A stretch of DNA of 64,000 bases from a candidate division WOR-3 bacterium (GTDB lineage Bacteria > Hydrothermota > Tepidihabitantia > Tepidihabitantales > CAIPLT01), in assembly GCA_965649215.1 (NCBI GenBank), contig CBFGJZ010000006.1:3108-67107 (forward strand), written 5' to 3'. How positions within the stretch are numbered: the first letter of the stretch is position 1; each line of letters begins with the position of its first letter. The translations under genes were made by a program, and so were the position numbers. The notes beneath the pieces were generated by a model. That model ran no database searches. It had not been told where the DNA came from and saw only the letters and a program-made list of their open reading frames with translations. Positions 1 through 51,604 of the stretch are shown piece after piece.

Positions 1-85
1 TTTTTAATGATAAAAATCAAATTGATTATGTAATGTTTTTAATAAAACAAGCATATGATAAACAGTCTGATGAACAAATTGAATA

Positions 86-3000
86 ATGCCTAAAATCATT
101 ACTGAATCTGAAGTTGAAATCGCAGTTCTGGATATTCTAAAGGATTTAGGATATTCGGTTTTTTATGGTCCAGATATTTCTGAAGGCGGTCTGTTTGCGG
201 AACGAAATTATAATGAAGTGGTTTTGACCAGAAGGTTAAGAGATGCTTTAGAAAATATTAATCCTGATATTCCTAGTTTAGCAATCGACGAAGCAATTAA
301 AAAGATTATAAGAACCGACAGCCAAAATTTAACTCTTAATAATCAGTCTTTTCATAAGATGGTTACAAACGGCGTAGCGGTTGAATACCGACGGAAAGAT
401 GGCAGTATTAAGCATGATATTGTTTGGCTCTTTGACTTTAATAACATTGAAAATAATGAGTTTTTGGCAGTTAATCAATTTACTGTAGTTGAAGAGCGTA
501 ATACCCGAAGACCAGATATTGTTTTGTTTGTTAATGGCCTGCCAATTGTGCTGATTGAGTTAAAGAACCCAACTGATGAGAATGCGACAATTTGGTCCGC
601 ATATAATCAGTTTGAGACCTATAAACAGCAGATTCCATCTTTGTTTAGATTTAATGAAGTTTTGGTTATCAGCGATGGTTGGGAAGCAAGGGCAGGAACT
701 TTGACATCTAACAAAGAGCGATTTTCGCCCTGGAAAACGATTAATGGACAAAAGATGCCCGAATATTTTTCACAACTGGAAGTGCTTTTAAGAGGAATGT
801 TAAACAAAGAAGTTTTATTGGATTTAATCCGACATTTTATCGTGTTTGAGATTGATAAAGATAAGAAAGACGGAAACCTAAAAATTTCTAAGAAACTGGC
901 GATTTATCATCAGTATAATGCGGTAAATAACGCGATTAAATCAACAATCCGAGCATTGGCATTAGATAATTTAAAAGTCAGTGAATCACCTGAACGATAT
1001 GGTCTGCCATCAGTACAAGAACAACCAAAAGGCGATAAAAGGGGAGGTGTGGTCTGGCATACTCAAGGTTCAGGTAAAAGTTTGATAATGGTATTTTTTG
1101 TTGGCAAACTGATTTTACAACCAGAACTGGAAAATCCTACTATCATACTTCTAACTGACCGAAATGATTTAGATGACCAGTTATTCGAAACATTTAACCG
1201 ATGTCAGGAACTTATAAGACAAGAGCCCAAACAGGCAGAATCCCGAGAAGATATTCAGGAACTTTTGAAAGTCTCATCTGGTGGGATTATATTTACCACA
1301 ATTCAAAAATTCTTACCAGAAATTAAAGGAACAAGATATCCATTGTTATCTGACCGAAGAAATATTATTGTGATTGCGGATGAAGCACACCGAAGCCAGT
1401 ATGATTTTATTGATGGTTTTGCCCGTCATATTAGAGATGCACTACCGAACGCAACTTTTATCGGATTTACGGGTACTCCAATTGAAAAAGCAGACCGAAG
1501 TACACCAGCAGTATTCGGTAATTATGTTGATATTTATGATATCCAACAAGCGATCAATGATAAAGTTACGGTGCCAATTTTTTATGAAAGTAGACTTGCG
1601 AAACTGGAACTAAAACCCGAAGAACGACCGCATATTGATGAAGATTTTGAAGAGGTTACTGAAGGTGAAGAGATTGAACATAAAGAACGATTGAAAACTA
1701 AATGGGCAAGATTAGAGAAGATTGTCGGGGCAGAAAATCGAATCAAAAGAATTGCCGATGACATTGTCAAACATTGGGAAAATAGATTGTCTGTGATTGA
1801 TGGTAAAGCAATGATTGTTTGTATGAGCCGAAGAATATGTATTGATTTGCACAATGAAATAGTGAAATTAAGACCCCAATGGTATCATAAAGATGATGAT
1901 AAAGGCATTATCAAAGTCGTAATGACTGGTTCAGCAACTGACCCCCTTGAATGGCAAGAACATATTCGAAATAAAGAAAGGCGGAGGGCAATTGGTGAAA
2001 GGATGAAAGACCCATCTGACCCAATGAAAATTGCGATTGTGCGGGATATGTGGCTAACTGGATTTGATGCCCCAAGTTTGCATACAATGTATATTGATAA
2101 ACCAATGCGCGGGCATGGATTAATGCAAGCCATTGCACGAGTAAATCGGGTTTTTAAAGATAAAAACGGCGGTTTAATTGTTGATTATATCGGTATTGCG
2201 GTTGATTTGCAAAAAGCAGTTGTCCAGTATACTGAAAGCGGTGGCAAAGGTAAACCAGTTTTTTACCAAGAAGAAGCAGTGAAAATATTACTTGAACAAT
2301 ATGAAATAATTAAAGAGATGTTTTATGGCTTTGATTATACCAAATTTTTCAAACTAGACACAAACGAGAAAATTCTCTTTCTACGGGAAGCAATGGAACA
2401 TTTACTACAACAACCCGATGGTAAAGAACGGTTCTTAAGAAATGTCAAGAAATTATTGTCGGCATTTGCGCTGGCAGTTCCCAATGAAGAAGCATTGGCA
2501 ATAAAAGACGATGTTGGTTTGTTTCAAGCGATAAAATCAATGATTGCAAAATCAACCCCAACATCAGAAAAAGAGCAAGAAGATATTGAGTCGGCAATCA
2601 AGCAAATATTATCGAGAGCAATTGTTTCAGACCGAGTGATTGATATATTTGCGGCAGCAGGACTACAAAAACCTGACTTATCAATTTTATCGGATGAATT
2701 TTTAGCCGAAATAAAGGGTATGCCCCAGAAAAATCTAGCATTTGAAATGCTGAAAAAATTATTGAATGATGAAATAAAAATAAAATTCCGGAAAAATATC
2801 GTTGAGGCAAAGAGATTTTCTGAGTTGTTAGAAGAAGCAATTAAAAAATATATTAACCGAACAATTGAAACCGCCCAAATTATTGAAGAGTTGATTAACC
2901 TTGCCAAAGAAATGAAAGCAGCCCACCAAAGAGGTGAACAATTAAATCTATCTGAAGATGAATTGGCATTTTATGATGCATTGGAAGTTAATGATAGTGC

Positions 3001-3235
3001 GGTGAAAATTCTTGGAGATGAAGTGTTACGAACAATCGCAAGAGAGTTATTTGAAACCGTGAGAAGAAATATTACCATTGATTGGACATTGAGAGAAAAT
3101 GTTCAGGCAAAATTAAGGGTGATGGTCAAAAGAATATTAAAGAAATTCGGTTATCCGCCAGATAAACAGCAAAAAGCAACTGATTTGGTATTAGAACAAG
3201 CCAAAGTGATTTGTAAAGATTTAGTTGCCGCTTAA
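86..3235 (+). CDS. hsdR: Type I restriction-modification system endonuclease R subunit (HsdR); start ATG overlaps the stop of an upstream same-strand gene (probably hsdS or hsdM, outside window)
   Basis: 1049 aa; N-terminal HsdR-N-like region, DEAH helicase motif (IADEAHRSQ), motif VI-like QAIARVNR, typical length for type I R subunits. Confidence 0.85.
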
Positions 3236-3444
3236 TTTTTATTTCTGTTAAAATTTATCTCTTCTCCCATTTTTTCTTAAACTTCTTTTTATTTATTTTT
3301 TTTTATTTTTTTTGTCCAAAAAATCGCGGTGAGTCCGTCATAGATAGATGGTGAGAGTAAATAGTTATCAAAGCCGACGATTTTTTATCTTTGGCAATAT
3401 GGCTTATTTATTCTTGCCTAAATCAGTTCTCAGAAAGGACTTCT

Positions 3445-3852
3445 ATGAAAGACTCACTTTTTGCGAAAAAGATTGAGTACCAACGGGCCATTGCCCGCTT
3501 AAACCAACGCATTAAAGAACTCCAAGATAAAGTCCGACAATTTAAAGCTAAAGAGAAAGTTGTTGACTCACGCATTCATTTGGATATGCTTAATAATAAT
3601 ATCACTGCTTATCAAACCCTCAATTATCAATTTGAATTGAGTCGTGATGTTATCAGCCAAATCATTGAAAGTGAACGCGAAACGGCAATGAAATATGATA
3701 AACGCTATCAGATTGGCTTATTTCATACTGTGATTAATGGCATGCGACTGAAACAATGGGTGCGTAAGACTTTAGAGCAGAACCAGAAACCACCGAATTT
3801 TGTGAAATATGACGAGTTTGTAAAAATTATCGCAAGACCGCTTAACGAATAG
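3445..3852 (+). CDS. Hypothetical coiled-coil protein; the ORF track starts at 3391, but AAAGGA 6 nt upstream of the ATG at 3445 favours the shorter form
   Basis: Intact ORF, RBS-like AAAGGA upstream of MKDSLF, local GC about 45 % versus about 35 % flanking; no recognisable family. Confidence 0.5.
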   Translation: MKDSLFAKKIEYQRAIARLNQRIKELQDKVRQFKAKEKVVDSRIHLDMLNNNITAYQTLNYQFELSRDVISQIIESERETAMKYDKRYQIGLFHTVINGMRLKQWVRKTLEQNQKPPNFVKYDEFVKIIARPLNE

Positions 3853-3871
3853 GGCAGGCCTGACTACTACT

Positions 3872-3894
3872 CGGGGTCTTGCCCCGGGGTTTTG
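3872..3894 (+). terminator. GC-rich hairpin (cgggg-tcttg-ccccg) followed by a short T-run; putative intrinsic terminator or attenuator between the two small genes
   Basis: Perfect 5-bp GC stem, overlapping palindrome ccccgggg, then gtttt. Confidence 0.4.
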
Positions 3895-3955
3895 GGTATT
3901 ACAGCCAAAAATTAATTTTGGATATCACTTTTATAAAGAAAGGAGGTGATATTTA

Positions 3956-4327
3956 ATGGGTGTTAGACCAGCATCAAGACGATTAGAAAAATGGGATAAT
4001 AACTTTTCGGGTGATGTTTTATCAGAACGAATGAAGAATTATAAAGATAAGATGCGCGAACAACTCTCTAATATCTTTCCCTTGCAAGAGACCTTAGAAA
4101 ATGAAGTTAAGACCATTCTTGCTGAAGCCGGTACTTCCACAGTCTTAAATCCTGCGTACTTGAATTTTGGGCGAGAAGTGTTAAAACTCTGCCAAAAGTT
4201 TTCGGGTGGCCAGTTGATTAATGCTGTGGATGTCGTGTTGAATAAATGGGTGGCACGAGCATTAGACCGTGATATTTTAGAGCGCATTCGTAATACGGTC
4301 TTTGCGTTAGTTGGACCATCGCCATAA
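3956..4327 (+). CDS. Hypothetical protein (123 aa) with strong Shine-Dalgarno AAAGGAGGTGA
   Basis: Intact ORF, canonical RBS 8 nt upstream, GC-elevated; no recognisable domain. Confidence 0.55.
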   Translation: MGVRPASRRLEKWDNNFSGDVLSERMKNYKDKMREQLSNIFPLQETLENEVKTILAEAGTSTVLNPAYLNFGREVLKLCQKFSGGQLINAVDVVLNKWVARALDRDILERIRNTVFALVGPSP

Positions 4328-4349
4328 GAATTTAATAAATATAATACTA

Positions 4350-4671
4350 CTGTCGGTAAGATTGCTTCAGTCGCTTCACTCCTTCGCAATGACAAAAACG
4401 GGACTGTATGTAAGATTGCTTCAGTCGCTTTGCTCCTTCGCAATGACTAAAGGGTAAATGTCATTGCGAGCGAATGTAATGAGCGTGGCAATCTTGCCGA
4501 CAGTGAGAAAAAGAGAATACAAAGACACTATGATGATTAAGGGATTTTTACCGGCTGTAAGATTGCTTCAGTCGCTTTGCTCCTTCGCAATGACAAAAAC
4601 GGGACTGTATGTAAGATTGCTTCAGTCGCTTTGCTCCTTCGCACTGACGAGACTTGGAGTCTTGCCGACAG
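4350..4671. repeat. Cluster of palindromic repeat units. Four direct copies of a 38-nt unit (gtaagattgcttcagtcgctttgctccttcgcaatgac) lie at 4356-4393, 4410-4447, 4557-4594 and 4611-4648. The first two and the last two are each separated by an identical 16-nt spacer. An inverted, diverged copy lies at 4460-4505, and the cluster is bounded by ctgtcgg / ccgacag terminal inverted sequences.
   Basis: Read directly from the sequence. The spacer aaaaacgggactgtat is identical at 4394-4409 and 4595-4610. The same unit recurs at 8945-8982. Confidence 0.85.
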
Positions 4672-4684
4672 TAAAGATTAAATA

Positions 4685-5314
4685 ATGCGTAATAGTTATA
4701 AGAATTTTATTGTGCTTTGCGAAAGGGATATTCGCAAGCATTTTGAAATCTCGTATAATTCTGTATTAGTCCTACGCCAAATCTTTTTCTACCAACAAGG
4801 CAACTTAAAGAAGTGTATTGCATCAAAACCGACCTTATGTAAGCATGCGCAGATTTCCAAACGCTCGTTATATTATTGCTTAAAAGAACTGCAACTTAAA
4901 AATCTTATTCATCGCCAGCGCCGAAGTATTATCGTCAGCAATACTTTTTTACGCTATCTCAAGTATCTTTACGAACTATACGAACGCTGTTTAACTTGGG
5001 CCGAATTTCATAAAATTAAACTCCAATGGTTCTGGAAGAGATGCGGCCAAAGTATGGAAAAGTTATTCTGTTATCTTCGGGGTAATAGTGAGACTTGCAC
5101 TTATCAGTTAAAAAAATTGCACCCTAACAGTAGATTAAACTCTTCTCATGAGTTTAATATGAACAGTAGAAGCCGTCTTCGTTTGCGGTTATTAATCCAA
5201 CAAGAATTAGAGCGCTTATCCGCTCATGAATTAAAGCAATTATATTTAGATAAACTGAATAATACCCGAAGTTTACAAAAGATTAGTATTAATAGTTTAT
5301 CGGTATTGAGATGA
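4685..5314 (+). CDS. Hypothetical protein with a predicted helix-turn-helix (…CKHAQISKRSLYYCLKELQLKNLI…); start uncertain and no clear RBS
   Basis: Intact 209-aa ORF directly 5' of the ECF sigma gene; HTH-like segment; basic, Cys/Tyr-rich. Confidence 0.4.
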   Translation: MRNSYKNFIVLCERDIRKHFEISYNSVLVLRQIFFYQQGNLKKCIASKPTLCKHAQISKRSLYYCLKELQLKNLIHRQRRSIIVSNTFLRYLKYLYELYERCLTWAEFHKIKLQWFWKRCGQSMEKLFCYLRGNSETCTYQLKKLHPNSRLNSSHEFNMNSRSRLRLRLLIQQELERLSAHELKQLYLDKLNNTRSLQKISINSLSVLR

Positions 5315-5327
5315 TTCTCTTCTTCAT

Positions 5328-5816
5328 TTGCCTGATTATAATCTCCTACGCGAATGGTATCAGCAATATCGCTTTGCGTTATGGCACTATATTAAAAAAC
5401 GGATTAAGAATTATGACGATGCCCAAGATTTATTGAGTGAAGTTTTTAAGCGAATGATTACCCATGCCGACAGTCTAAAAGATATCAAAAAGGTTAAAAG
5501 CTGGCTCTGGCAAATTGCTCATCATTTAATTGTTGACTATTATCACCGCCAACACTACCAACGCAATCAGGTAGTTTCGTTAAGTGAAGACAATGAAAAT
5601 AATCTTATCGCAAAAAGTGAGAATCTGCTCTTAAATAGTGCGGTTCAAAAGACGCTTAATAAACTACCCAAAGCCCAAGCCCAACTTTTGATTTTACGAC
5701 ACTTTGAAAATCGGGATATTGCCGAAATCGCACAAATTACTAATAAAACTCAAAGTGCGACTTATAAAGCACTGCGCCGCGCCGAAGCGCATTTTAAGAA
5801 AATATATCATCCTTGA
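5328..5816 (+). CDS. RNA polymerase ECF-type sigma-70 factor (orphan; no anti-sigma gene follows)
   Basis: Sigma-70 region 2 (DAQDLLSEVF…WLWQIAHHLIVDYY) and region 4 (RDIAEIAQITNKTQSATYKALRRA) signatures. Confidence 0.75.
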   Translation: MPDYNLLREWYQQYRFALWHYIKKRIKNYDDAQDLLSEVFKRMITHADSLKDIKKVKSWLWQIAHHLIVDYYHRQHYQRNQVVSLSEDNENNLIAKSENLLLNSAVQKTLNKLPKAQAQLLILRHFENRDIAEIAQITNKTQSATYKALRRAEAHFKKIYHP

Positions 5817-8681: not shown

Positions 8682-8988
8682 GCAAAGACATTATGCAAGG
8701 TAACCTATGTCATGCTGAATTTATTTCAGCATCTCAAGGCCATAGACCTTGAAACAAGTTCAGGGCGACAGTTAAGTATAGCAAATTCAGGGTGACAGTT
8801 AGGAAGACAACAAATAATAAAAGACACGAAGATACAAAGTAATATGTCATTGCGCTGTTGCCGAAAGGCAACCCTGGCAATCTTGCCGACAGTGAAAATC
8901 AGATAACATAAAGACACTAAGATGATTAAGGGACTTTTACCGGCTGTAAGATTGCTTCAGTCGTTTCACTCCTTCGCAAAGACATTAT
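8682..8988. repeat. Second locus of the palindromic repeat family. A complete ~137-nt element sits at 8846-8982: an inverted arm gtcattgcg…ggcaatcttgccgacagtg, a conserved core …aagacactaagatgattaagggacttttaccggct, then the 38-nt unit. The 14-bp direct repeat gcaaagacattatg at 8682-8695 and 8975-8988 flanks a region containing related fragments.
   Basis: The core and arms align with 4460-4594. The 14-mer duplication is read directly from the sequence. A local hairpin lies at 8709-8730 (atgctgaa-tttat-ttcagcat). Confidence 0.8.
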
Positions 8989-23920: not shown

Positions 23921-25468
23921 ATGTTAGATGTTTATACTTTTTTTATTAAAGAATTTAGAAAGCTATTAGACTTTAAATCTCCTTCGAATCGCTATTTTTT
24001 ACCTCGTCCTTATCGAAATAGTGCGGTGCAATTCCGAAAGTGTCGGATTGAAGATTACGAAGAACGAGTAGAAATTTTAGAATCAGTTGGTCTTAATGCA
24101 TTCTTTTTCCCTGCGCAAAAAATTCCCGGCTGTGATTTATTATCTGATTCAGGAACTACAACTATGACTATTGAGCAATGGTCTCAACTGTTATTAGGTG
24201 ATGAAGCTTATGGTGCCAATGAGGGTTATTTTGAACTCAAAGAACAAATTGTTAAGACTTTTGGACAAGATTGGCGTCAATCTGTACCTCAAATCGAAAA
24301 TATGTTTATCTTTCATCAAGGTCGTGCTGCTGAATATGCTCTTTTTTCACAACTTGCTTATCTATTGAAACAACAAGGACATAATTTAACAGAAATAATC
24401 ATTCCTAGTAACTCCCATTTTGATACAACACAAGCAAACATTGAAAATCAACAAATGATCGCACTTAACCTGCCCTGTCAAGAGCACCTTACTAACAACG
24501 AACAATATCCCTTTCGTGGTAACATCGATCTGAAACGACTTGAAGAGTACTTAGAACAAAAAAGTTCCCAGATTCCGCTTGTTTATCTTACTATCACCAA
24601 TAATACTGTTGGTGGTCAACCTGTCTCAATGGCTAATATTCGACAGACACGAGAAATCACCCAGCGTTACCAAATTCCATTGTTCTTAGATGCAAGCCGT
24701 TTTGCTGAAAATGCTTGGTTTATTAAGCATAAAGAAGCAGGATACCACTTAAAGACTATTCAAGAAATTATTTATGAGATGTTTCAATATTGCGATGGTT
24801 TTCATGCTAGTTTTAAAAAAGATGGTTTAGTGAATATCGGGGGTATGTTAGTCATAAAACCTGATGGATTATTCTCCCAAAAATATCCTCACTTTTGGCA
24901 AAGACTAATCGACCATCAAATTCTTATTGAAGGTAATCCTTCGTATGGTGGTTTAGCAGGACGGGATCTCAAAGCATTAGTACAAGGTTTAAAAACAGTA
25001 GTTAATGAAGATTATTTGACATATCGAATTAGACAAGTAGAAAAATTTGGCAATAAATTAATTGAATACAATATTCCAATTATCCGACCAATCGGTGGTC
25101 ATGCAATTTATATTGATGTCGATAAATTTTTTAATACAAAACGGGCAGATGAAGATTTTTTAGGTATTAGTTTAACCGCCCTGATGTTAATTGCTGGTCA
25201 TCGATTATGTGAACTTGGGTTATATGCTTTTGGAAAGTATCGAAATGGTCAAGAAATTTTGCCGACGCCAAGAGTTAATTATGTTCGCGCTGCAATACCA
25301 CGCTTAGTCTATGAAGATCAGGATTTATTAGCAGTTGCTGAAGCAATCAAAATTTTATATAACAATCAAGATAATATCCCTGGTGTAGAAGTTATTTATG
25401 GTCGTGAATTACCTCTTCGCCATTTCAAATCAAGATTTAAATTTAAAGCAATCTTTTGCCTTTTTTGA
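23921..25468 (+). CDS. tnaA: Tryptophanase / beta-eliminating lyase family (TnaA/tyrosine phenol-lyase-like), PLP-dependent, with ~45-aa N-terminal extension
   Basis: DLLSDSGTT and GDEAY motifs matching the tryptophanase family; 515 aa. Confidence 0.65.
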   Translation: MLDVYTFFIKEFRKLLDFKSPSNRYFLPRPYRNSAVQFRKCRIEDYEERVEILESVGLNAFFFPAQKIPGCDLLSDSGTTTMTIEQWSQLLLGDEAYGANEGYFELKEQIVKTFGQDWRQSVPQIENMFIFHQGRAAEYALFSQLAYLLKQQGHNLTEIIIPSNSHFDTTQANIENQQMIALNLPCQEHLTNNEQYPFRGNIDLKRLEEYLEQKSSQIPLVYLTITNNTVGGQPVSMANIRQTREITQRYQIPLFLDASRFAENAWFIKHKEAGYHLKTIQEIIYEMFQYCDGFHASFKKDGLVNIGGMLVIKPDGLFSQKYPHFWQRLIDHQILIEGNPSYGGLAGRDLKALVQGLKTVVNEDYLTYRIRQVEKFGNKLIEYNIPIIRPIGGHAIYIDVDKFFNTKRADEDFLGISLTALMLIAGHRLCELGLYAFGKYRNGQEILPTPRVNYVRAAIPRLVYEDQDLLAVAEAIKILYNNQDNIPGVEVIYGRELPLRHFKSRFKFKAIFCLF

Positions 25469-26933
25469 AGACTGCAATAATTTTATTATCTGTTGTAGCA
25501 AGGGGATCTTTTTCTAAAACAATAAAATCAGCATCTGCGCCGATTGATAATGACCCGATCCGATTTTCTGCTTGAATTGCATAAGCACCATTACAAGTAA
25601 ACATTTTTAGTGCTTCTTGTAAAGTTATACTGTGTTCAGGATTAGGCATGTTCGCCGCAGTGCTAATACCTAACAAAGGATTAATCGGAGTAATTGGAGC
25701 ATCTGAACCACCAGCGATTATTATACCCTTTTCAATTAATTTTCGGTAGGGATTAGTATTCTGCCATCTTTGTCCTAATCGTTCTGCATACATTTTATTA
25801 GGGCCACCCCAATAAAATTCAAATGCGGGTTGCACACAGATTATTAAATTCAGTTTGCTTATTTCATCAATTAAAGCATCGGTTAGTAATTCACAATGCT
25901 CAATACGATGACGATTATGATTATCTTTAAGACAATGTTTTACAACTTTGATAACTTGTTTAATTGCTCGATCACCAATTGCATGAACCGCAGTCTGTAA
26001 ATTATTCGTATCAGCGTTTAGATAAAATTCTTCTAATTCCTGATCAGAATAATATAAGATACCATAATGATTGGGTTTGTCAGCATAAGGTTCATTAAGT
26101 GCTGCAGTATGAGAACCAAACGAACCGTCAATAAGAATACACCCACCAATTCTAGGCAAATTTAATCTTTGCACTCTTTGGATATCTCGAGTTTGATAAA
26201 AGGGAATTACTTCAATCGGTAATCTTGATGAATTAGCGACTAAAAGCTCGCAGGTAAGATTGTCAAGTTCTGAACCTACCATTGTCACCATCGTAGTAAC
26301 TCCCTGTTGAATTGCCAATTCTGAAGCCTTAAAAAATGATTCAATTCTTAATGCTGGATCAATTTTTTTTATAAAGATGCGGCTTGCTAATTCAAATACT
26401 TCACCACGTAAAACACCGGTCGGCTCTTTATATTGATCAACTTCAATGCCACTTTGAGAAGAATCACCATAATTTGTTAAAACTTCATTTAAGCCAGAGC
26501 TATTAAGTACTGCAGAATGCCCATCAATACGATATATTAAAATGGGATATTTTTTGAGAATTTTATCTAATTCCTTTTTTGTTGGATACCGTTTTTCTTT
26601 AATATTATCAGGGTCAAAATTATACACAATAAGATATTTAAGTTCTTGTGCTAAATTGTAGGCAGCAAAAACTCTGTCAAATAATTCTTCTAAAGATTGA
26701 ATATCAGAGACTTCGGGAAATATTTTTTGTAACCCAACTCCTAAAATATGAGTGTGTGAATCAATAAAACCCGGCATTATATAATTATCAGAAAAGGATA
26801 TTTTATCTAATAAAGAGGGGAGAGCTGTTGATGAAAGTTCTTTAATCATGCCATCATCAATTAGCATCCAATGATACACATCATTATTTTTGTTAATACT
26901 ATATATTTTTTTAGCAGTTACTAAATATTTCAT
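25443..26933 (-). CDS. Amidohydrolase-family metal-dependent hydrolase
   Basis: N-terminal PGFIDSHTH metal-binding motif; 496 aa; 3' end overlaps tnaA convergently. Confidence 0.7.
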   Translation of the reverse strand: MKYLVTAKKIYSINKNNDVYHWMLIDDGMIKELSSTALPSLLDKISFSDNYIMPGFIDSHTHILGVGLQKIFPEVSDIQSLEELFDRVFAAYNLAQELKYLIVYNFDPDNIKEKRYPTKKELDKILKKYPILIYRIDGHSAVLNSSGLNEVLTNYGDSSQSGIEVDQYKEPTGVLRGEVFELASRIFIKKIDPALRIESFFKASELAIQQGVTTMVTMVGSELDNLTCELLVANSSRLPIEVIPFYQTRDIQRVQRLNLPRIGGCILIDGSFGSHTAALNEPYADKPNHYGILYYSDQELEEFYLNADTNNLQTAVHAIGDRAIKQVIKVVKHCLKDNHNRHRIEHCELLTDALIDEISKLNLIICVQPAFEFYWGGPNKMYAERLGQRWQNTNPYRKLIEKGIIIAGGSDAPITPINPLLGISTAANMPNPEHSITLQEALKMFTCNGAYAIQAENRIGSLSIGADADFIVLEKDPLATTDNKIIAVFKKGKRLL

Positions 26934-26940
26934 ATATTAT

Positions 26941-28287
26941 TTATTGTGCGACTATTTTAGCAATTGATTCAACATGATAAGTTTGTGGAAACATATCAAT
27001 GAGATGGTACTTATCTAATCGATATCGATATTTTTGAAATATTACTAGATCACGAGCAAAAGTTGCTGGATTACATGAAATATAAATAATTTTTTCTGGT
27101 CTCATTCTAATTATGTTGGTGAGTAACTTTTCCGAACAACCTTTACGAGGTGGATCAAGGATTATCGTGTCGATATCTTTGTAGTCTTGTATGACATTTT
27201 CTACTGATGAAGCAATAAATTCAATATTATTAATATTATTCAACTGAGCATTTTTTTGAGCATCATGAATTGCATCTGCATTTATCTCAATTCCGATTAC
27301 CTTTTTAGCTAATTCGCTTAACATAATCGCAAAAAAGCCAACTCCACAATACAAATCTAATAATCGATGCGCTGAAACTAAATATTCTTTAATGATATTG
27401 ACCATTTTTTTAGCCTGATCGACATTGACTTGAAAGAATGCCGAAGCTGAAATATTAAAAGTCTTGTCAAGAATCTTTTCTTGATAATAATTTTTGCCAT
27501 ATAAAATAATATTTTCTTTACCTAAAATACGATTCGTCCGTTCAGGATTAACATTTTGAATAATACTGACAATATTAGGAAATAAATTAGGTAAAAACTT
27601 ATATAAAAGAGGATTAATTGAATGAGTTCGGGTTACAAAAATTACTAAAACTTGATTGGTATTCATTCCTTGTCTAATTATAATATGTCGTAAATTGCCT
27701 TTATGTTTTTTTTCATTATAAATTGATTCCTTAATCTTATTAAGTTGTTTTCTTAAAGATTCTCGTATTTTATCAAATAAAGGTGGATGTAGTAAACATT
27801 GATCAATATTTATAACATTATGGCTAAATTTTTGATAAAAACCTATTCTCAGTGGCCGTTCACTCAGGGGATATTGGGTTTTATTACGATAGTGAAAAGG
27901 TTGTGACGATGATAGTGCTGGTAAATCTTTTAGATTCAGTTTACTAATTCGTTGGAGTGATTCAATGAAAAATTCTTGTTTAATTCTTAACTGATTTTCA
28001 TATTTAATATGTTGTAAGTCACATCCTCCGCAAACAGTAAAATATTGACAGGGGGGAGTTGTGCGGAAAGGGGACGGTTCGATTAGTTTATGAATGGTTG
28101 CTTTGTAGTATGTTTTTTTGCGCTCTTTAATTTTTAATTGGACATAATCAAGGGGTACGCCATATGGGACAAAGACTTTTATCCCATTATAATTACATAA
28201 ACCATACCCACCATAGACGATTTTATCAATTCTCGTTGTGAATGTGTTTGATGGATAGAGTTTTGCTTTTTGGGGGTGGTTTACCAA
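26941..28287 (-). CDS. rlmD: 23S rRNA (uracil-5)-methyltransferase RlmD/RumA family (TRAM + Fe-S + MTase)
   Basis: TRAM-like N-terminus, Cys cluster (CxxxxxxCGGC), SAM-MTase motifs (LDLYCGVG; DPPRKG). Confidence 0.75.
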   Translation of the reverse strand: MVNHPQKAKLYPSNTFTTRIDKIVYGGYGLCNYNGIKVFVPYGVPLDYVQLKIKERKKTYYKATIHKLIEPSPFRTTPPCQYFTVCGGCDLQHIKYENQLRIKQEFFIESLQRISKLNLKDLPALSSSQPFHYRNKTQYPLSERPLRIGFYQKFSHNVINIDQCLLHPPLFDKIRESLRKQLNKIKESIYNEKKHKGNLRHIIIRQGMNTNQVLVIFVTRTHSINPLLYKFLPNLFPNIVSIIQNVNPERTNRILGKENIILYGKNYYQEKILDKTFNISASAFFQVNVDQAKKMVNIIKEYLVSAHRLLDLYCGVGFFAIMLSELAKKVIGIEINADAIHDAQKNAQLNNINNIEFIASSVENVIQDYKDIDTIILDPPRKGCSEKLLTNIIRMRPEKIIYISCNPATFARDLVIFQKYRYRLDKYHLIDMFPQTYHVESIAKIVAQ

Positions 28288-32274: not shown

Positions 32275-33138
32275 TCATCTGTCAAGTTGATTCAATAATT
32301 CGGAAATATTATTTATTGTCACTGCCCCCAGTGAGATTATTTTCTCATTCATAATTGAATTAATCCCTTTCAAAATAAACACTTTTTTATTATATTGAGT
32401 CGCATATTCAACAGTACTTAAAGTTCCACCGCTATCACCGGCTTCAATTACTAAGAGGTAATCAGAAAGCATTGCAGTAATTCGATTTCTTAATAACGCA
32501 TTTGCTAATGACCATTCACTTAAAGGGAAAAATTCGGATAATAATATCGCTTGGCTAGAAAATTCATCGGCTGATTGCTTGAGCTCTTCATGTAATCGGA
32601 ACTTTAAAATTCCTGTCGGTAAGACTGCAATCGTTAACTGATTATTATCGACTGCACCGTGATGGGCAGCCGTATCAATTCCCTTAGCATAACCACTTAC
32701 AATTATAAATCCATTGCGGGCAAGTTCTGAAGCAAACTTATAAGCCTGTTCTTTACCGTATTGCGAGGCATCGCGAGTTCCGATTATACCAAAAGTTTTA
32801 CCGTTTGGTAAATAGCGAGAAAGATATAATAGTGACGGTGCATTACTAATTTTATTTAGAACAAAAGGATATGATTTATCGTGTTTAGTAATAACTTTAA
32901 TATTACGATTATATAATTGTTGTAAAATTTTCTCCATTTCATCAAGTTTATCTTTTGCTCGAAGTATCTCATTAATAATTCTTTGATTAAGGCGAGGAAT
33001 CTTTTCTAATTCATCGAATGTCGCTTCAAATACTGCTTTTGGATTTTTATAATTTTCTAAAAGATTCTGAAAAGTTGCAGGTCCGATTCCTTCGATACTC
33101 TGTAATAATAAATAATATTTTAAATTATTTGCATCCAT
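32275..33138 (-). CDS. dprA: DNA-processing protein DprA (Smf)
   Basis: Rossmann-like DprA core (GIIGTRDASQYG…SGYAKGIDTAAH…GGTLSTVEYA), 287 aa. Confidence 0.8.
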   Translation of the reverse strand: MDANNLKYYLLLQSIEGIGPATFQNLLENYKNPKAVFEATFDELEKIPRLNQRIINEILRAKDKLDEMEKILQQLYNRNIKVITKHDKSYPFVLNKISNAPSLLYLSRYLPNGKTFGIIGTRDASQYGKEQAYKFASELARNGFIIVSGYAKGIDTAAHHGAVDNNQLTIAVLPTGILKFRLHEELKQSADEFSSQAILLSEFFPLSEWSLANALLRNRITAMLSDYLLVIEAGDSGGTLSTVEYATQYNKKVFILKGINSIMNEKIISLGAVTINNISELLNQLDR

Positions 33139-33879: not shown

Positions 33880-33952
33880 TACCCCTGGTGAGATTCGAAC
33901 TCACGACCTACGGTTTAGGAAACCGTCACTCTTTCCAACTGAGCTACAGGGG
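33880..33952 (-). tRNA. tRNA-Arg (anticodon CCT)
   Basis: Manually folded cloverleaf on the minus strand: acceptor GCCCCTG/CAGGGGT; D-arm GCTC…GAGT; anticodon stem ACGGT/ACCGT with loop TTCCTAA; T-arm GTGAG-TTCGAAT-CTCAC; discriminator A; CCA not encoded. Confidence 0.85.
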
Positions 33953-34000
33953 CTAATCATATCATTATATTAGATTAATAAATTCTGTCAATCAATTATC

Positions 34001-46389: not shown

Positions 46390-46643
46390 TTTAATATCCT
46401 AAGACTTTTAAATAATAAAAATCCCCGCTACAATTCGTGTAAGCAGGAGTCTTTGAACCCTAAAAACAAGTGGGCGTCATCGCTAATATTTTCTGTACGC
46501 AATAAAAGCTTACATCGACATCAGCATCAGACACCCAAACAATGGGTGTTAGCTCAAGACTTCATGGCTTATCACGAAGCGAGCAGGGAGTTAATCTCTA
46601 ATTCAAATAACAATTTACAAAAAGGTATTACTGTTATTTGAAT
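46390..46643 (-). ncRNA. Candidate structured non-coding RNA or leader in a GC-enriched intergenic region between zapA and rny (6S-RNA-like position by analogy with zapA-ssrS synteny; unverified)
   Basis: Local GC is clearly above the AT-rich intergenic norm. A 9-bp perfect hairpin lies at 46602-46638 (caaataaca…tgttatttg). No ORF is present. Confidence 0.25.
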
Positions 46644-50048: not shown

Positions 50049-51584
50049 TTAATGAAGCCTTTCTTGCCGAGCCTGAATTTTCCATTTCGATGTGTATGAT
50101 GAATTTAATCTAATACTTTTAGGTAATTTATGATTTTCCTCAAGATAATTATATAATGCTATAGTTATCGCAGCTATTTTATTAAAATCATTACTTTCTT
50201 GGTTATAAGTATTTCTTTCTGTTTCGATGTTCTCTTCTACAATTTCACCTTTTAAAAATTTAATTGCTATTTGAGGAAATAATGTATAAGTCATTAAATC
50301 TTCTTCTTCATGTCCTCTTCGTAGGAGATGTAAAGTTTCTACCTCTTGTTTTTTTACAGATAATTCCGGTTTTAATAAGTCAGCGGGTCGACAATCTATT
50401 GGTTTTTCATTACCAATGATTATTTTTAATATGTCTTTTTTAATTGTTGCCGGAGGTCTGCCATATAAACCCAAACAATAATCTTTAACTTCTTTACTAA
50501 TTTGTGAATATCGTTTACCTGATAATACATTCAATACGGCTTGAATACCTACAATTTGACTTGTTGGAGTAACTAAAGGTGGATATCCTAAATCTTCTCT
50601 TACTCTTGGTGTTTCCGCTAATACTTCTTGGTATTTATCTAGCGCATTTTGTTCTTTTAATTGTGCATGTAAATTTGAAAGCATTCCTCCCGGAATTTGA
50701 TGAACTGCTACTGATGCATCAGTCATTTCCGCAATTGGACTAATATATTTTGAATATTTCTTCTTCATGTCTAAAAAATAATAACCAACATTGATAATCT
50801 TTTTTATGTCGAGTTTCGTATCATAAGGACTATCTTGAAGACTCACGACAATATTTTCTAATGAGGGTTGCGAACTACCACCACTAAAAACTGATACTGC
50901 AGTATCAACAATGTCCACTCCCGCTTGAATGGCAGAATAATAACTTATCAATCCCATTCCACTGGTACAATGAGTGTGTAAATTAATTGGTACTTTTATA
51001 ATTTGTTTTAAAGCTTTCACTAATTCATAAGCTATGTGTGGTGAAATCAAACCAGCCATATCCTTTATACAGATATAATCACAACCCATCAATTCTAATT
51101 GATGACCCATTTCAACAAATTTTTCAATAGTGTGAACTGGACTTGTAGTATAACAAATCGTTCCTTGTACTTCGCTACCAAGATCTTTAGCGGTTTTAAT
51201 TGCTTTTTCCATATTCCGAATATCATTTAAAGCATCAAAAATTCTAAAAATATCAATCCCATGTTTTTTAGCTAACTTTATGAAATTTTCAACGACATCA
51301 TCAGCATAATGTCGATAACCCACAAGATTTTGGCCTCTGAGTAACATTAATAATTTTGTATTAGGTAAGTGTTCCCTTAATTTATCTAATCGAAACCAAG
51401 GATCTTCTGCTAAATAACGAATACAGACATCAAAAGTTGCGCCGCCCCAAACTTCCATTGCAAAAAATCCAATTTTATCCATTTGGTCACATATTGGTAT
51501 CATATCAGAAATTCTCATCCGGGTAGCCATCAATGATTGATGCGCATCACGAAAAGTAGTATCAATAATCTTTACGGTATTCAT
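50049..51584 (-). CDS. Oxaloacetate decarboxylase alpha / pyruvate carboxylase subunit B-type carboxyltransferase (5S) without fused biotin domain
   Basis: TIM-barrel carboxyltransferase N-terminus (IIDTTFRDAHQS) and conserved core; 511 aa. Confidence 0.8.
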   Translation of the reverse strand: MNTVKIIDTTFRDAHQSLMATRMRISDMIPICDQMDKIGFFAMEVWGGATFDVCIRYLAEDPWFRLDKLREHLPNTKLLMLLRGQNLVGYRHYADDVVENFIKLAKKHGIDIFRIFDALNDIRNMEKAIKTAKDLGSEVQGTICYTTSPVHTIEKFVEMGHQLELMGCDYICIKDMAGLISPHIAYELVKALKQIIKVPINLHTHCTSGMGLISYYSAIQAGVDIVDTAVSVFSGGSSQPSLENIVVSLQDSPYDTKLDIKKIINVGYYFLDMKKKYSKYISPIAEMTDASVAVHQIPGGMLSNLHAQLKEQNALDKYQEVLAETPRVREDLGYPPLVTPTSQIVGIQAVLNVLSGKRYSQISKEVKDYCLGLYGRPPATIKKDILKIIIGNEKPIDCRPADLLKPELSVKKQEVETLHLLRRGHEEEDLMTYTLFPQIAIKFLKGEIVEENIETERNTYNQESNDFNKIAAITIALYNYLEENHKLPKSIRLNSSYTSKWKIQARQERLH

Positions 51585-51604
51585 AATTTTGTAGCTGTGA
51601 TTTT

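What the first reader, a model, noticed from the sequence alone, without database searches (positions are those of the whole stretch)
4350..4671. Composite palindromic (MITE/REP-like) repeat cluster with internal duplication
Four direct copies of a 38-nt unit (gtaagattgcttcagtcgctttgctccttcgcaatgac) are arranged as two dimers. Each dimer carries an identical 16-nt spacer (aaaaacgggactgtat). An inverted diverged copy (gtcattgcgagcg…ggcaatcttgccgacag) lies between the dimers. The whole cluster is bounded by ctgtcgg…ccgacag. The arms can pair to give a long imperfect hairpin, with 9 bp of gtcattgcg / cgcaatgac. The same family recurs 4.3 kb away at 8846-8982. Identical spacers and inverted copies argue against a CRISPR array. 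The structure fits a miniature inverted-repeat element, a REP/BIME-like intergenic repeat, or a multi-copy structured small RNA. A spurious ORF (4458-4685) lies inside it.
Basis: seen in the sequence. Interest (0 to 1): 0.55.

Follow-up and report, generated by a model that had tools for sequence, protein, structure and literature searches.

The report
Cluster of Ssn-nuclease-type hairpin repeats
This intergenic repeat cluster in an uncultured WOR-3 bacterium is a mosaic of small oriented DNA hairpins of the kind that tiny GIY-YIG "Ssn" nucleases cut in single-stranded DNA, which makes it a new sequence type of a known repeat class.

Summary
Window 4350-4671 holds four direct 38-nt units, two identical 16-nt linkers, one inverted diverged unit and one truncated unit. 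A related 138-nt element lies at 8846-8983.

Read on the minus strand, the 38-nt unit is an oriented hairpin: YGTC tag, 5-bp stem ATTGC/GCAAT, a variable upper hairpin rich in G.A mismatches, then a C. The same frame occurs in at least 17 phyla.

In other genomes these modules abut genes for ~95-aa single-domain GIY-YIG proteins. Those proteins are 54% identical to the N. gonorrhoeae homologue of SsnA. SsnA-family enzymes are published site-specific ssDNA nucleases that bind such hairpins (NTS/dRS3, "Ssn-related motifs"; Chenal et al. 2025). The hairpins are also the "CGTC-tagged REPs" of Di Nocera et al. 2013.

The published search motif does not detect the window's type. I therefore read it as a divergent, undescribed member of that class, arranged like a BIME/NIME mosaic.

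A near-identical strain differs by one 51-nt module, and more distant relatives have a decayed or empty site.

The 64-kb window holds no ssn gene, transposase or Rfam match. Whether this genome has a partner nuclease is unknown.

MITE, sRNA and CRISPR readings are not supported. Interest is modest.

The parts
4350..4393 (-). Module A1 with its tail extension (CTGTCGG + 38-nt unit 4356-4393). Tag strand is minus: 5'-TGTC ATTGC GA AG GA GT GAA GC GA CT GAA GCAAT C TTACCGACAG
   Evidence: frame by comparison with 132-134 modules from other phyla
4394..4409 (.). 16-nt linker AAAAACGGGACTGTAT, copy 1. It forms part of a 54-nt tandem period A1+linker / A2+linker.
   Evidence: D1, spacing 54
4410..4447 (-). 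Module A2, exact consensus 38-mer
4448..4459 (.). 12-nt junction between the tag ends of A2 and B1. Arrays in other genomes have tag-to-tag junctions of 8-12 nt.
4459..4503 (+). Module B1, tag strand plus: TGTC ATTGC GAGCGAATGTAATGAGCGTG GCAAT C TTGCCGACAG
   Evidence: I1
4504..4556 (.). 53-nt centre between the tails of B1 and A3. Together B1 + centre + A3 (4460-4594, 135 nt) form a tail-to-tail module pair. In other genomes this position holds 10-50 nt of spacer or an ssn gene.
   Evidence: (D3)
4557..4594 (-). Module A3, exact consensus
4595..4610 (.). 16-nt linker, copy 2, identical to copy 1
4611..4648 (-). Module A4 (1 mismatch; basal stem damaged, GCACT instead of GCAAT; tag reads CGTC)
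4649..4671 (+). Truncated B-type module (3' half only, GAGACTTGGAGTCTTGCCGACAG), 79% identical to the end of B1. About 33 nt are missing compared with 4448-4480.
   Evidence: D2; direct reading
8845..8892 (+). Module B2: TGTC ATTGC GCT GTTGCC GAAA GGCAAC CCTG GCAAT C TTGCCGACAG. It has its own upper hairpin.
   Evidence: DNA fold -9.8 kcal/mol, z -2.4
8893..8945 (.). 53-nt centre of the second pair, homologous to 4504-4556
   Evidence: D3
8946..8984 (-). Module A5 (GTAAGATTGCTTCAGTCGTTTCACTCCTTCGCAAAGAC). The apical closing pair is T-A, where A2-A4 have C-G and A1 has T.G.
8708..8735 (+). Hairpin of a second type with the same frame: TGTC ATGCTGAA TTTA TTCAGCAT CTC (8-bp stem, 4-nt loop, 3-nt tail)
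   Evidence: (z -4.4)
8745..8797 (-). Two degenerate inverted relatives of that second type. On the minus strand they read TGTCGCCCTGAACTTGTTTCAAGGTC (8745-8770) and the half-unit TGTCACCCTGAATTTGCT (8780-8797).
   Evidence: direct reading

Best explanation
The cluster is a BIME/NIME-like mosaic of oriented DNA hairpin repeats. They belong to the class described as 'CGTC-tagged REPs' (Di Nocera et al. 2013) and as 'Ssn-related motifs' (SRM/NTS; Chenal et al. 2025).

Anatomy. Each module, read on its tag strand, has these parts:
- an unpaired YGTC tag;
- a 5-bp basal stem ATTGC/GCAAT;
- a GA/GAA internal loop;
- a freely variable upper hairpin.
- a C directly after the stem.

Mechanism, by analogy with the characterised Neisseria and Wolbachia systems. 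A ~95-aa single-domain GIY-YIG nuclease (Ssn) would bind the folded hairpin. It would bind only when that strand is single-stranded, as in incoming transforming DNA or in replication and repair intermediates. It would nick a few nucleotides 5' of the tag. This would modulate recombination around the flanking genes.

Why the repeats cluster. Modules multiply and are lost locally by slippage, unequal recombination and segmental duplication. The wider family spreads with, or is targeted by, ssn genes that sit between module pairs.

Shown here: the anatomy, the conserved frame, covariation in the stems, physical linkage of this module family to ssn genes in other genomes, and module-level gain and loss between close strains.

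Inferred: that a WOR-3 Ssn exists and cuts these sites, and any effect on transformation.
For: 1. Frame. In 134 modules that my search pattern did not select, the base before GTC is T in 50% and C in 36%. The tails are CTC, CTG or CCC, and the inner parts are diverse but self-complementary. When I anchored only on the inner core, 113 of 132 flanking 5-mers were fully complementary, including compensatory ATCGC/GCGAT (6) and GTTGC/GCAAC (1). An NGTC tag was present in 124 of 132, and the tail started with C in 128 of 132.

2. Apical pair. In the unconstrained N5-7 of the genome scan the closing pair is C..G in 83, T..A in 25 and mispaired in 15 of 123. The loops are GAA, GCA, GTA, GGA or AAA. 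Window copies show C-G, T.G and T-A at this pair.

3. Strand asymmetry. The tag strand folds 2.1 kcal/mol better than its complement (p = 1e-14), with 64 versus 37 G.U pairs.

4. Breadth.

5. Linkage to Ssn.
- GIY-YIG was the most frequent Pfam family among 150 ORFs lying within 200 nt of modules.
- Five copies occur in 4 loci, each abutted by modules. In L118 the order is tag-first module, 15 nt, ORF, 5 nt, tail-first module.
- In the reciprocal test, homologues were picked without regard to repeats: P0176/P0211, P0152, P0235 and P0199. All are flanked by ATTGC-type modules, 2-20 nt after the stop codon in most and about 70 nt in P0199.
- The proteins are 54% identical over 94 of 94 aa to the N. 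gonorrhoeae SsnA homologue. Y6, Y17 and E64, the residues mutated in the paper, are invariant.
- Neisseria, Sinorhizobium, Azospirillum and Planktothrix homologues are likewise flanked by YGTC hairpins.

6. Published biochemistry (PMC11893778). SsnA binds and cuts only ssDNA and only one strand. GTC is needed for cutting and the C after the palindrome for binding. The loop can be replaced or extended.

7. Turnover.
- L138 is 99.8% identical to the window over 6.9 kb and differs by one 51-nt module.
- The relative with 88% identical RecJ has only a decayed module, and the relative with 68% identical RecJ has a 19-nt empty spacer.
- The number of modules next to an identical Ssn protein varies between metagenome samples.
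Against: - No ssn homologue, or any nuclease or transposase candidate, lies in the 64-kb window or in 32 kb of related WOR-3 contigs. The modules here may be orphans or relics.
- The published SRM search motif finds none of the window's modules. Membership therefore rests on the shared frame and on gene linkage in other genomes, not on the published definition.
- The basal stem is only 5 bp, against 8-9 bp in described CGTC families. Standard nearest-neighbour folding gives single A units no stability. The G.A-based structure is my inference from known DNA mini-hairpin chemistry.
- The Ssn profile was built from module-adjacent genes, so the reciprocal test samples their close clade only.
- The 51-nt difference between two metagenome assemblies could be an assembly collapse.
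- The window has only two repeat loci in 64 kb.
Confidence: 0.72

Rival explanations
1. Classical MITE: a deletion derivative of a DDE-type insertion sequence, moved by cut-and-paste through its terminal inverted repeats GTCATTGCG...CGCAATGAC.
For: Elements of 135 and 138 nt with inverted termini occur twice in the window. Related relatives have an empty or partly filled site.
Against: - There is no target-site duplication at 8846/8983.
- No transposase lies in the window.
- No transposase recurs among 887 ORFs near 117 loci.
- Gain and loss occur at single ~50-nt modules flanked by direct repeats.
- The gene that does sit between module pairs is a 95-aa GIY-YIG nuclease.
Confidence: 0.06
2. 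REP/REPIN mobilised by a RAYT (HUH Y1 transposase), as in Pseudomonas and E. coli.
For: The layout is similar: inverted hairpin doublets, BIME-like clusters and strand-specific single-strand structure.
Against: - The tag is YGTC, not GTAG.
- No Y1 or HUH family appears among the neighbouring ORFs or in the window.
- Di Nocera et al. found no tyrosine transposase flanked by CGTC repeats (PMC3733652).
Confidence: 0.04
3. Structured small RNA or mRNA 3'-end element: the repeats act as RNA in termination, stabilisation or regulation.
For: The whole cluster folds better than shuffles on both strands (z -3.4 and -4.1). It lies between co-directional genes. REPs in E. coli can affect mRNA decay (established knowledge).
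Against: - No Rfam family matches at E<=10.
- There is no terminator-like site.
- On the mRNA-sense strand, four of the five full modules present the pyrimidine-rich complement, where the G.A pairs become C.U mismatches.
- SsnA does not bind RNA (PMC11893778).
- A secondary effect at the RNA level is not excluded.
Confidence: 0.08
4. Relic or orphan repeats: the modules were acquired with the neighbouring accessory DNA, or left by a lost ssn element. They now only drift and recombine, with no partner enzyme in this genome.
For: - No ssn lies in 64 kb.
- Only two loci occur in the window, and A4 and A5 have damaged basal stems.
- A decayed module sits in the 88% relative.
- Cluster 1 lies beside strain-specific genes: HsdR, and an orphan 209-aa ORF.
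Against: Three units are identical or nearly identical, and there is a module indel between 99.8%-identical strains. Both argue for recent activity or recent duplication. This reading is a sub-case of the best explanation (same kind of repeat, different present state) and is not a separate identity.
Confidence: 0.3

Closest known systems
Ssn-related motifs (SRM), including the Neisseria NTS/dRS3 repeat, with their SsnA GIY-YIG ssDNA nucleases (Chenal et al., Nat Commun 2025, PMC11893778)
   Same: - It is an oriented hairpin with an unpaired 5' (H)GTC, a stem starting with A-T, and a C directly after the stem.
- It is intergenic and clustered.
- Module pairs flank a ~95-aa single-domain GIY-YIG gene.
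- The neighbouring proteins are 54% identical to the N. gonorrhoeae SsnA homologue, with Y6, Y17 and E64 conserved.
- The variable upper part is consistent with the published finding that the loop is dispensable and extendable.
   Different: - The basal stem is 5 bp (ATTGC), not 8-9 bp rich in G+C.
- A GA/GAA internal loop and a long variable upper hairpin (12-60 nt) replace a 3-5-nt loop.
- The published search motif does not match it (0 hits).
- It is found here in phyla not named in the paper's main text, such as Chloroflexota, Bacteroidota, Patescibacteria, Omnitrophota and WOR-3.
- No ssn gene is seen in this window, and no biochemistry exists for this type.
CGTC-tagged REP super-family, families CGTC-1 to -4 (Di Nocera, De Gregorio & Rocco, BMC Genomics 2013, PMC3733652)
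   Same: - The tag is CGTC or TGTC.
- The stem begins with A-T and T-A pairs.
- There is a 3-nt tail.
- Units form inverted dimers with conserved spacers.
- The repeats occur in several phyla, and no transposase is associated.
- The window's hairpin at 8708-8735 has the CGTC-1 geometry exactly (8-bp stem, 4-nt loop).
   Different: The main family has a 5-bp stem and a 12-60-nt 'loop', outside the stated 8-9 bp and 4-5 nt. The tail is CTC, CTG or CCC rather than CCA. That paper knew of no partner enzyme.
BIMEs of enterobacteria and NIMEs of Neisseria (mosaic intergenic arrays of REP/dRS3 units with repeated linkers)
   Same: The cluster is a mosaic of units in alternating orientation with repeated linkers. 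Copy number varies between strains.
   Different: BIME units are GTAG-tagged REPs partnered by a RAYT. NIME units are dRS3/NTS. The sequence family here is different.
REPIN-RAYT systems (Bertels & Rainey 2011)
   Same: Hairpin doublets occur as short non-coding derivatives of a layout in which the doublet flanks a single small nuclease gene. Recognition is strand-specific and on single strands.
   Different: The enzyme is a GIY-YIG nuclease rather than a HUH-Y1 transposase, and the tag differs. REPIN families are lineage-specific and vertically inherited, whereas this module type is shared across many phyla.

Membership tests
Ssn-related motif (SRM/NTS) repeats | Oriented hairpin with an unpaired 5' GTC (needed for cleavage) and a C immediately 3' of the palindrome (most important for binding) | tested here: met
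   All seven full window modules read NGTC...stem...C on the tag strand (TGTC x5, CGTC x1, AGTC x1). In the family, NGTC occurs in 124 of 132 and a 3' C in 128 of 132 when only the inner core is used as anchor.
Ssn-related motif (SRM/NTS) repeats | Matches the published degenerate search sequence HGTCWYN(0-2)YYVSBRHN(0-5)WNVSBRGN(0-2)RNCYNB | tested here: not met
   There are 0 matches in the window and in the ATTGC-type loci. The positive controls match: Neisseria 7, Azospirillum 4, Sinorhizobium 1. This is an operational search pattern derived from 29 genomes of 4 phyla, not a functional definition.
Ssn-related motif (SRM/NTS) repeats | Repeats flank an ssnA-family (cd10448-type, ~94-aa single-domain GIY-YIG) gene in genomes that carry them | tested here: met
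   This holds for the module family in other genomes: L029 x2, L118, L066, L093, and reciprocally P0176/P0211, P0152, P0235 and P0199. The proteins are 54% identical to the N. gonorrhoeae homologue. For the WOR-3 genome itself it was not testable. The window has no ssn.
Ssn-related motif (SRM/NTS) repeats | Bound and cut by the cognate Ssn as ssDNA only, and on one strand only | not testable with these tools
   This needs purified enzyme. The only indirect support is strand asymmetry of folding and G.A-dependent structure on the tag strand.
CGTC-tagged REPs (Di Nocera 2013) | Unpaired CGTC (or TGTC/CCTC) tag at one end | tested here: met
   window modules
CGTC-tagged REPs (Di Nocera 2013) | Stem of 8-9 bp starting with complementary A-T and T-A, and a loop of 4-5 nt | tested here: not met
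   The main family has a 5-bp stem (it does start A-T, T-A) and an inner part of 12-60 nt. The feature is met by the second hairpin type at 8708-8735.
CGTC-tagged REPs (Di Nocera 2013) | Short unpaired 3' tail, inverted dimers, and no flanking transposase gene | tested here: met
   A 3-nt tail CYN is present. There are 94 inverted pairs of 60-135 nt. No transposase family recurs. I could not map the paper's head/tail naming onto my orientation because the figures are not held.
MITE | Terminal inverted repeats plus a target-site duplication, and a related autonomous IS encoding a transposase | tested here: not met
   Inverted termini are present, but there is no TSD and no transposase.
REP/REPIN-RAYT | GTAG tag and an associated Y1 (RAYT) gene flanked by the repeats | tested here: not met
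   The tag is YGTC, and no Y1_Tnp is found among the neighbours or in the window.
CRISPR array | Direct repeats separated by unique spacers of similar length, usually with cas genes | tested here: not met
   The 'spacers' are identical 16-nt linkers, units occur in both orientations, and the window has no cas genes.

The most novel reading that the evidence does not exclude
The ATTGC-type module together with its ssn gene is an autonomous selfish element that crosses phylum boundaries. The layout 'tag-first module - ssn - tail-first module' (about 380 nt, as in L118 and L029) would be the smallest known nuclease-bearing mobile unit. The 60-135-nt module pairs, including those in this window, would be its non-autonomous derivatives. 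The near-identity of a 34-38-nt non-coding sequence in about 17 phyla would then reflect recent inter-phylum spread rather than common descent. This would also name the 'missing enzyme' of CGTC-tagged REPs, and it would extend Ssn targets to two-tier hairpins built on G.A mismatches and GC-GNA-GC mini-hairpins.
Probability: 0.3. Interest if true: 0.6.

Novelty: new member of a known kind. Interest (0 to 1): 0.35.

Why it matters
For annotation, it explains a very common nuisance. These units generate spurious short ORFs (here 4458-4685) and break metagenome assemblies. Most Ssn homologues sit on ~1-kb contigs.

For biology, three points follow:
- The published SRM search motif misses a large, phylum-spanning class of Ssn-associated hairpins. 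The reported 71% association of ssn genes with SRMs is therefore probably an underestimate.
- The 2013 'CGTC REP' super-family, described as having no enzyme, and the 2025 Ssn/SRM system appear to be the same thing.
- The variable upper hairpin could interest those who develop Ssn enzymes as ssDNA tools, because it suggests natural tolerance of large insertions at the loop.

For this WOR-3 genome the cluster itself is an ordinary, probably neutral or selfish, intergenic feature.

Tried and rejected
- Viral-contig scan with AAGATTGCTTCAGTCG: 18 hits, all chance matches, none followed by CGCAATGAC.
- Metagenome scan with the WOR-3-specific junction TTTACCGGCTGTAAGATTGC: 2 chance hits. The copy number of the 137-nt composite outside this MAG stays unknown.
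- Exact-protein look-ups of the two genes flanking cluster 1 found nothing. The 209-aa downstream ORF has no homologue except itself. No orthologous empty-site test was therefore possible for cluster 1; it was possible only for the second locus.
- Rfam at gathering threshold and at E<=10, on the window and on seven foreign loci: only tRNA and 6S.
- Literature searches by nucleotide strings and by the peptide strings these repeats encode found only primers and chance matches.
- All-against-all clustering of 887 neighbouring ORFs gave only generic families such as ABC transporters, glycosyltransferases and methyltransferases. The GIY-YIG link emerged only from the Pfam scan of the 150 nearest ORFs.
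- A generic search for GTC-tagged perfect hairpins in the window is not enriched over shuffles (16 versus 14.3). The window has no hidden population of such hairpins beyond the two loci.
- The phage collection has no homologue of the Ssn protein.
- An attC/integron reading was rejected. There is no GTTRRRY core, no cassette-sized spacing and no intI in the window.
- I briefly took the GIY-YIG association for a new finding. The search 'dRS3 + GIY-YIG' showed it was published in 2025.
Full report
OBSERVATION.
- The 38-mer GTAAGATTGCTTCAGTCGCTTTGCTCCTTCGCAATGAC occurs at 4356-4393, 4410-4447, 4557-4594 and 4611-4648, with 2, 0, 0 and 1 mismatches. No match appeared in any of 100 shuffles.
- The two 16-nt linkers are identical.
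- An inverted, diverged unit lies at 4460-4503, and a truncated one at 4649-4671.
- The outer arms CTGTCGG/CCGACAG close the cluster.
- A second locus at 8846-8983 is 89% identical over 110 nt to 4486-4595.
- Nothing else in the 64 kb belongs to the family.

The cluster has an internal history. A1+linker and A2+linker form a 54-nt tandem period. The block A1-linker-A2 is duplicated as A3-linker-A4 at 94% identity (D1). The second copy's inverted partner lacks about 33 nt.

CONTEXT. The window is chromosomal DNA of an uncultured candidate-division WOR-3 bacterium of about 33% G+C. Its RecJ-like protein is 100% identical to one from MAG GCA_039801405.1.

It carries 6S RNA, a tRNA-Arg and housekeeping genes throughout.

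Cluster 1 lies between a 123-aa ORF and an orphan 209-aa winged-helix-like ORF. Nearby are a type I restriction R subunit and an ECF sigma factor. The second locus lies between the recJ-like gene and an RlmI-like methyltransferase gene.

The window holds no transposase, integrase, HUH, Cas or GIY-YIG protein. No Rfam family matches, even at E<=10. There is no terminator-like site.

THE UNIT IS PART OF A FAMILY SPREAD OVER MANY PHYLA. I scanned one genome per species with GATTGCTTCAGTCGN{5,7}CTCCTT. About 3 hits were expected by chance.

Nearly all hits continue with CGCAATGAC, which was not in the pattern.

By record titles, the hosts include Chloroflexota, Bacteroidota, Ignavibacteria, Desulfobacterota/Thermodesulfobacteriota, Gammaproteobacteria, Omnitrophota, Patescibacteria, Spirochaetota, Hydrogenedentota, Dadabacteria, Elusimicrobia, Planctomycetia, Aminicenantales, Methylomirabilota, Melainabacteria and others.

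The commonest arrangement is an inverted pair: GTCATTGCGAG-x-GCAATCTC, a 10-50-nt spacer, then GAGATTGC-y-CTCGCAATGAC. I found 94 such pairs of 60-135 nt. Window segments 4460-4594 and 8846-8983 have exactly this form.

ANATOMY OF A MODULE. I examined 134 modules that my search pattern had not selected.
- The base before GTC is T (50%) or C (36%).
- The tail is CTC, CTG or CCC.
- The inner segments are very diverse but self-complementary. Examples are GA-ATCCCGAC-TTGT-CGGGAT-GAA and GA-GACGCCT-CTC-AGGCGTC-GTG.

I then anchored only on the inner core, leaving the flanks free.
- 113 of 132 flanking 5-mers are fully complementary. They include ATCGC/GCGAT and GTTGC/GCAAC compensatory variants.
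- 124 of 132 carry NGTC.
- 128 of 132 have a C right after the stem.

In the unconstrained N5-7 of the genome scan the tip's closing pair is C..G in 83, T..A in 25 and mispaired in 15 of 123. The loops are GAA, GCA, GTA, GGA or AAA. GNA loops closed by C-G are the known, unusually stable d(GCGNAGC) DNA mini-hairpins (my knowledge of the Hirao/Yoshizawa work, not tested here). The window copies show the series C-G (A2-A4), T.G (A1) and T-A (A5).

Standard energy models do not credit G.A pairs. This is why single A units score no better than shuffles. Across 115 modules the tag strand folds 2.1 kcal/mol better than its complement (p = 1e-14), with 64 versus 37 wobble pairs. The structure therefore belongs to one strand.

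WHAT IT IS LINKED TO. Clustering all neighbouring ORFs showed no recurrent gene. A Pfam scan of the 150 ORFs nearest to modules put GIY-YIG on top.

Five copies of a 94-99-aa stand-alone GIY-YIG protein occur in four loci. The hosts are Christiangramia, a Melainabacteria MAG, an Anaerolineaceae MAG and a Chloroflexia MAG. The proteins are 47-53% identical between loci.

Each copy is abutted by modules. In L118 the ORF fills the 'spacer' of a module pair: 15 nt before the ATG and 5 nt after the stop codon.

For the reciprocal test I searched with a profile of these proteins. It found at least 7,999 relatives, which saturated the candidate limit. All are flanked by ATTGC-type modules.

At one gatB-ssn locus the number of downstream modules ranges from 1 to about 7 between samples that encode the identical protein.

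The same protein family in N. gonorrhoeae, S. meliloti, A. lipoferum and Planktothrix is flanked by YGTC-tagged hairpins of other sequence. In Neisseria these are the classical dRS3 units.

COMPARISON WITH THE LITERATURE. Di Nocera et al. 2013 defined a 'CGTC-tagged' REP super-family (PMC3733652).
- The tag is CGTC or TGTC.
- The stem is 8-9 bp and starts with A-T and T-A.
- The loop is 4-5 nt, followed by a 3-nt tail.
- Units form inverted dimers.
- The family was found in five phyla and includes Neisseria dRS3 and Rickettsia RPE-4/-6.
- No dedicated transposase was found.

Chenal et al. 2025 then showed the following (PMC11893778).
- The 94-aa GIY-YIG protein SsnA of N. meningitidis binds the oriented dRS3 variant NTS only as single-stranded DNA and only on one strand.
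- It cuts a few nucleotides 5' of the motif.
- GTC is needed for cutting, and the C after the palindrome is the most important base for binding.
- The loop can be removed or extended.
- SsnA lowers transformation by NTS-containing DNA.
- Homologues across bacteria are flanked by 'Ssn-related motifs' in an IS-like NTS-ssnA-NTS layout.

The proteins next to ATTGC modules are 54% identical over their full length to the N. gonorrhoeae SsnA homologue. They keep Y6, Y17 and E64.

The window's repeats therefore have the defining frame of SRMs, and the module family has the defining gene linkage. However, the published SRM search sequence finds none of them, while it finds the Neisseria, Azospirillum and Sinorhizobium controls. 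Their 5-bp stem and long variable upper part also fall outside the CGTC-1 to -4 geometry.

I therefore file them as a divergent, undescribed sequence type of a known kind. The small hairpin at 8708-8735 (TGTC ATGCTGAA TTTA TTCAGCAT CTC; z = -4.4) fits the CGTC-1 geometry. The SRM regex misses it too.

DYNAMICS. The orthologous recJ-methyltransferase spacer varies between relatives.
- It is 386 nt in the window.
- It is 437 nt in a strain that is 99.8% identical over 6.9 kb. The only indel is one extra 51-nt module, bounded by the direct repeat GGCAATCTTGCCGAC.
- It is 170 nt, with a single decayed module, in a relative whose RecJ is 88% identical.
- It is 19 nt and empty in a relative whose RecJ is 68% identical.

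Modules are thus gained and lost singly and quickly. Slippage or unequal exchange fits this better than cut-and-paste. There is no target-site duplication. Both near-identical sequences are metagenome assemblies, so a collapse artefact cannot be excluded.

MECHANISM AND ITS STATUS.
- Shown: the anatomy, conservation of the tag, stem and C frame, compensatory changes, strand asymmetry, linkage of this module family to ssn genes, and rapid module turnover.
- Taken from the literature: Ssn enzymes bind such hairpins in ssDNA and nick upstream.
- Inferred: a WOR-3 Ssn exists and recognises the ATTGC type. If so, five sites of cluster 1 would be cut, four on the minus strand and one on the plus strand. 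This would affect recombination of incoming or exposed single strands around the adjacent accessory genes.

The window encodes DprA (32275-33138). This is compatible with natural transformation but is not evidence for it. If the genome has no ssn, the cluster is an orphan relic.

VERDICT. The REP/BIME-like reading is right, and the MITE, sRNA and CRISPR readings are not supported. The cluster is a new member of a known kind, the Ssn-related or CGTC-tagged hairpin repeats. Interest is modest (0.35). The cluster itself is ordinary. The wider points could be worth a dedicated survey: a phylum-spanning SRM type missed by the published motif, and the identity of the 'CGTC REPs' with Ssn targets.

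Noticed in passing
window 8708-8797: A second hairpin repeat type sits directly upstream of the second locus. It comprises TGTC-ATGCTGAA-TTTA-TTCAGCAT-CTC and two degenerate inverted relatives. It shares the YGTC...C frame with the main family but has a different stem. The same co-occurrence is seen in a Melainabacteria MAG (L131). All of it is absent from the relative with 88% identical RecJ (L136).
   Followed up: partly
window 8893 versus L138 2396-2446: Two WOR-3 assemblies that are 99.8% identical over 6.9 kb differ by a single 51-nt module (GTCATTGTGAGCCGAAGGCGTGGCAATCTTGCCGACGG plus a 13-nt linker). A few substitutions lie just downstream of it. This is either real strain polymorphism, possibly with gene conversion, or an assembly collapse.
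   Followed up: partly
L141-L150 and L162-L170 (metagenome contigs of an unnamed low-GC bacterium): An ssn gene overlaps the stop codon of gatB as if in an operon. It has no module upstream but has a downstream array of 1 to about 7 modules. The array length differs between samples that encode the identical Ssn protein.
   Followed up: partly
L046, L053, L080, L083, L099, L105, L134 (Syntrophales-type loci); L041, L065, L108 (a Bacteroidales MAG): In these genomes the module pair is nested inside a larger, lineage-specific palindrome. Examples are CTGTGTCGCAAT...ATTATGACACAG and CCACTCCGAAAAGTCTACAA...GTTTGGACTTTTCGGAGTGG. This suggests insertion into, or co-option by, other palindromic elements.
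   Followed up: no
L172 (Sinorhizobium meliloti, CP090106.1 around 1705000): Upstream of an intact ssn gene lies the 3' fragment of a second ssn copy with its own trailing hairpin. Module-ssn-module units thus occur in tandem and decay.
   Followed up: no
window 4389-4416 and 4590-4617: Each unit-linker-unit junction creates a weak sigma-70-like match (ATGACA, 16 nt, TAAGAT; 9 of 12). A better match (TTCGCA, 17 nt, TATAAT; 10 of 12) lies at 4731-4759, inside the annotated start region of the 209-aa ORF.
   Followed up: no
window 1-5816: This looks like a strain-specific accessory segment. It holds the type I restriction R subunit (86-3235), a DUF7307 'Pam3 gp33-like' protein (3391-3852), a 123-aa ORF with no Pfam match and a 209-aa winged-helix-like ORF. 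That 209-aa ORF has only itself as a hit among 5.8 billion proteins. An ECF sigma factor follows. Synteny with the 68% relative (L137) starts only at recJ.
   Followed up: partly
window about 25000-28000: Cumulative GC skew peaks here, and gene orientation switches from plus (1-25.4 kb) to minus (25.4-56 kb). This may be a replication terminus or simply a convergent gene boundary.
   Followed up: no
window 50049-53482: Two adjacent paralogous carboxylase genes (HMGL-like + PYC_OADA) carry 82-84% identical DNA stretches (repeat families D5 and D7).
   Followed up: no
window 46418-46592 (-) and 33880-33953 (-): 6S RNA (61 bits) and tRNA-Arg(CCT). Both are ordinary and confirm a bacterial chromosome.
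   Followed up: yes
protein search: Most close Ssn homologues in the 5.8-billion-protein collection sit on contigs of about 1 kb. This is consistent with the flanking repeats breaking short-read assemblies.
   Followed up: no
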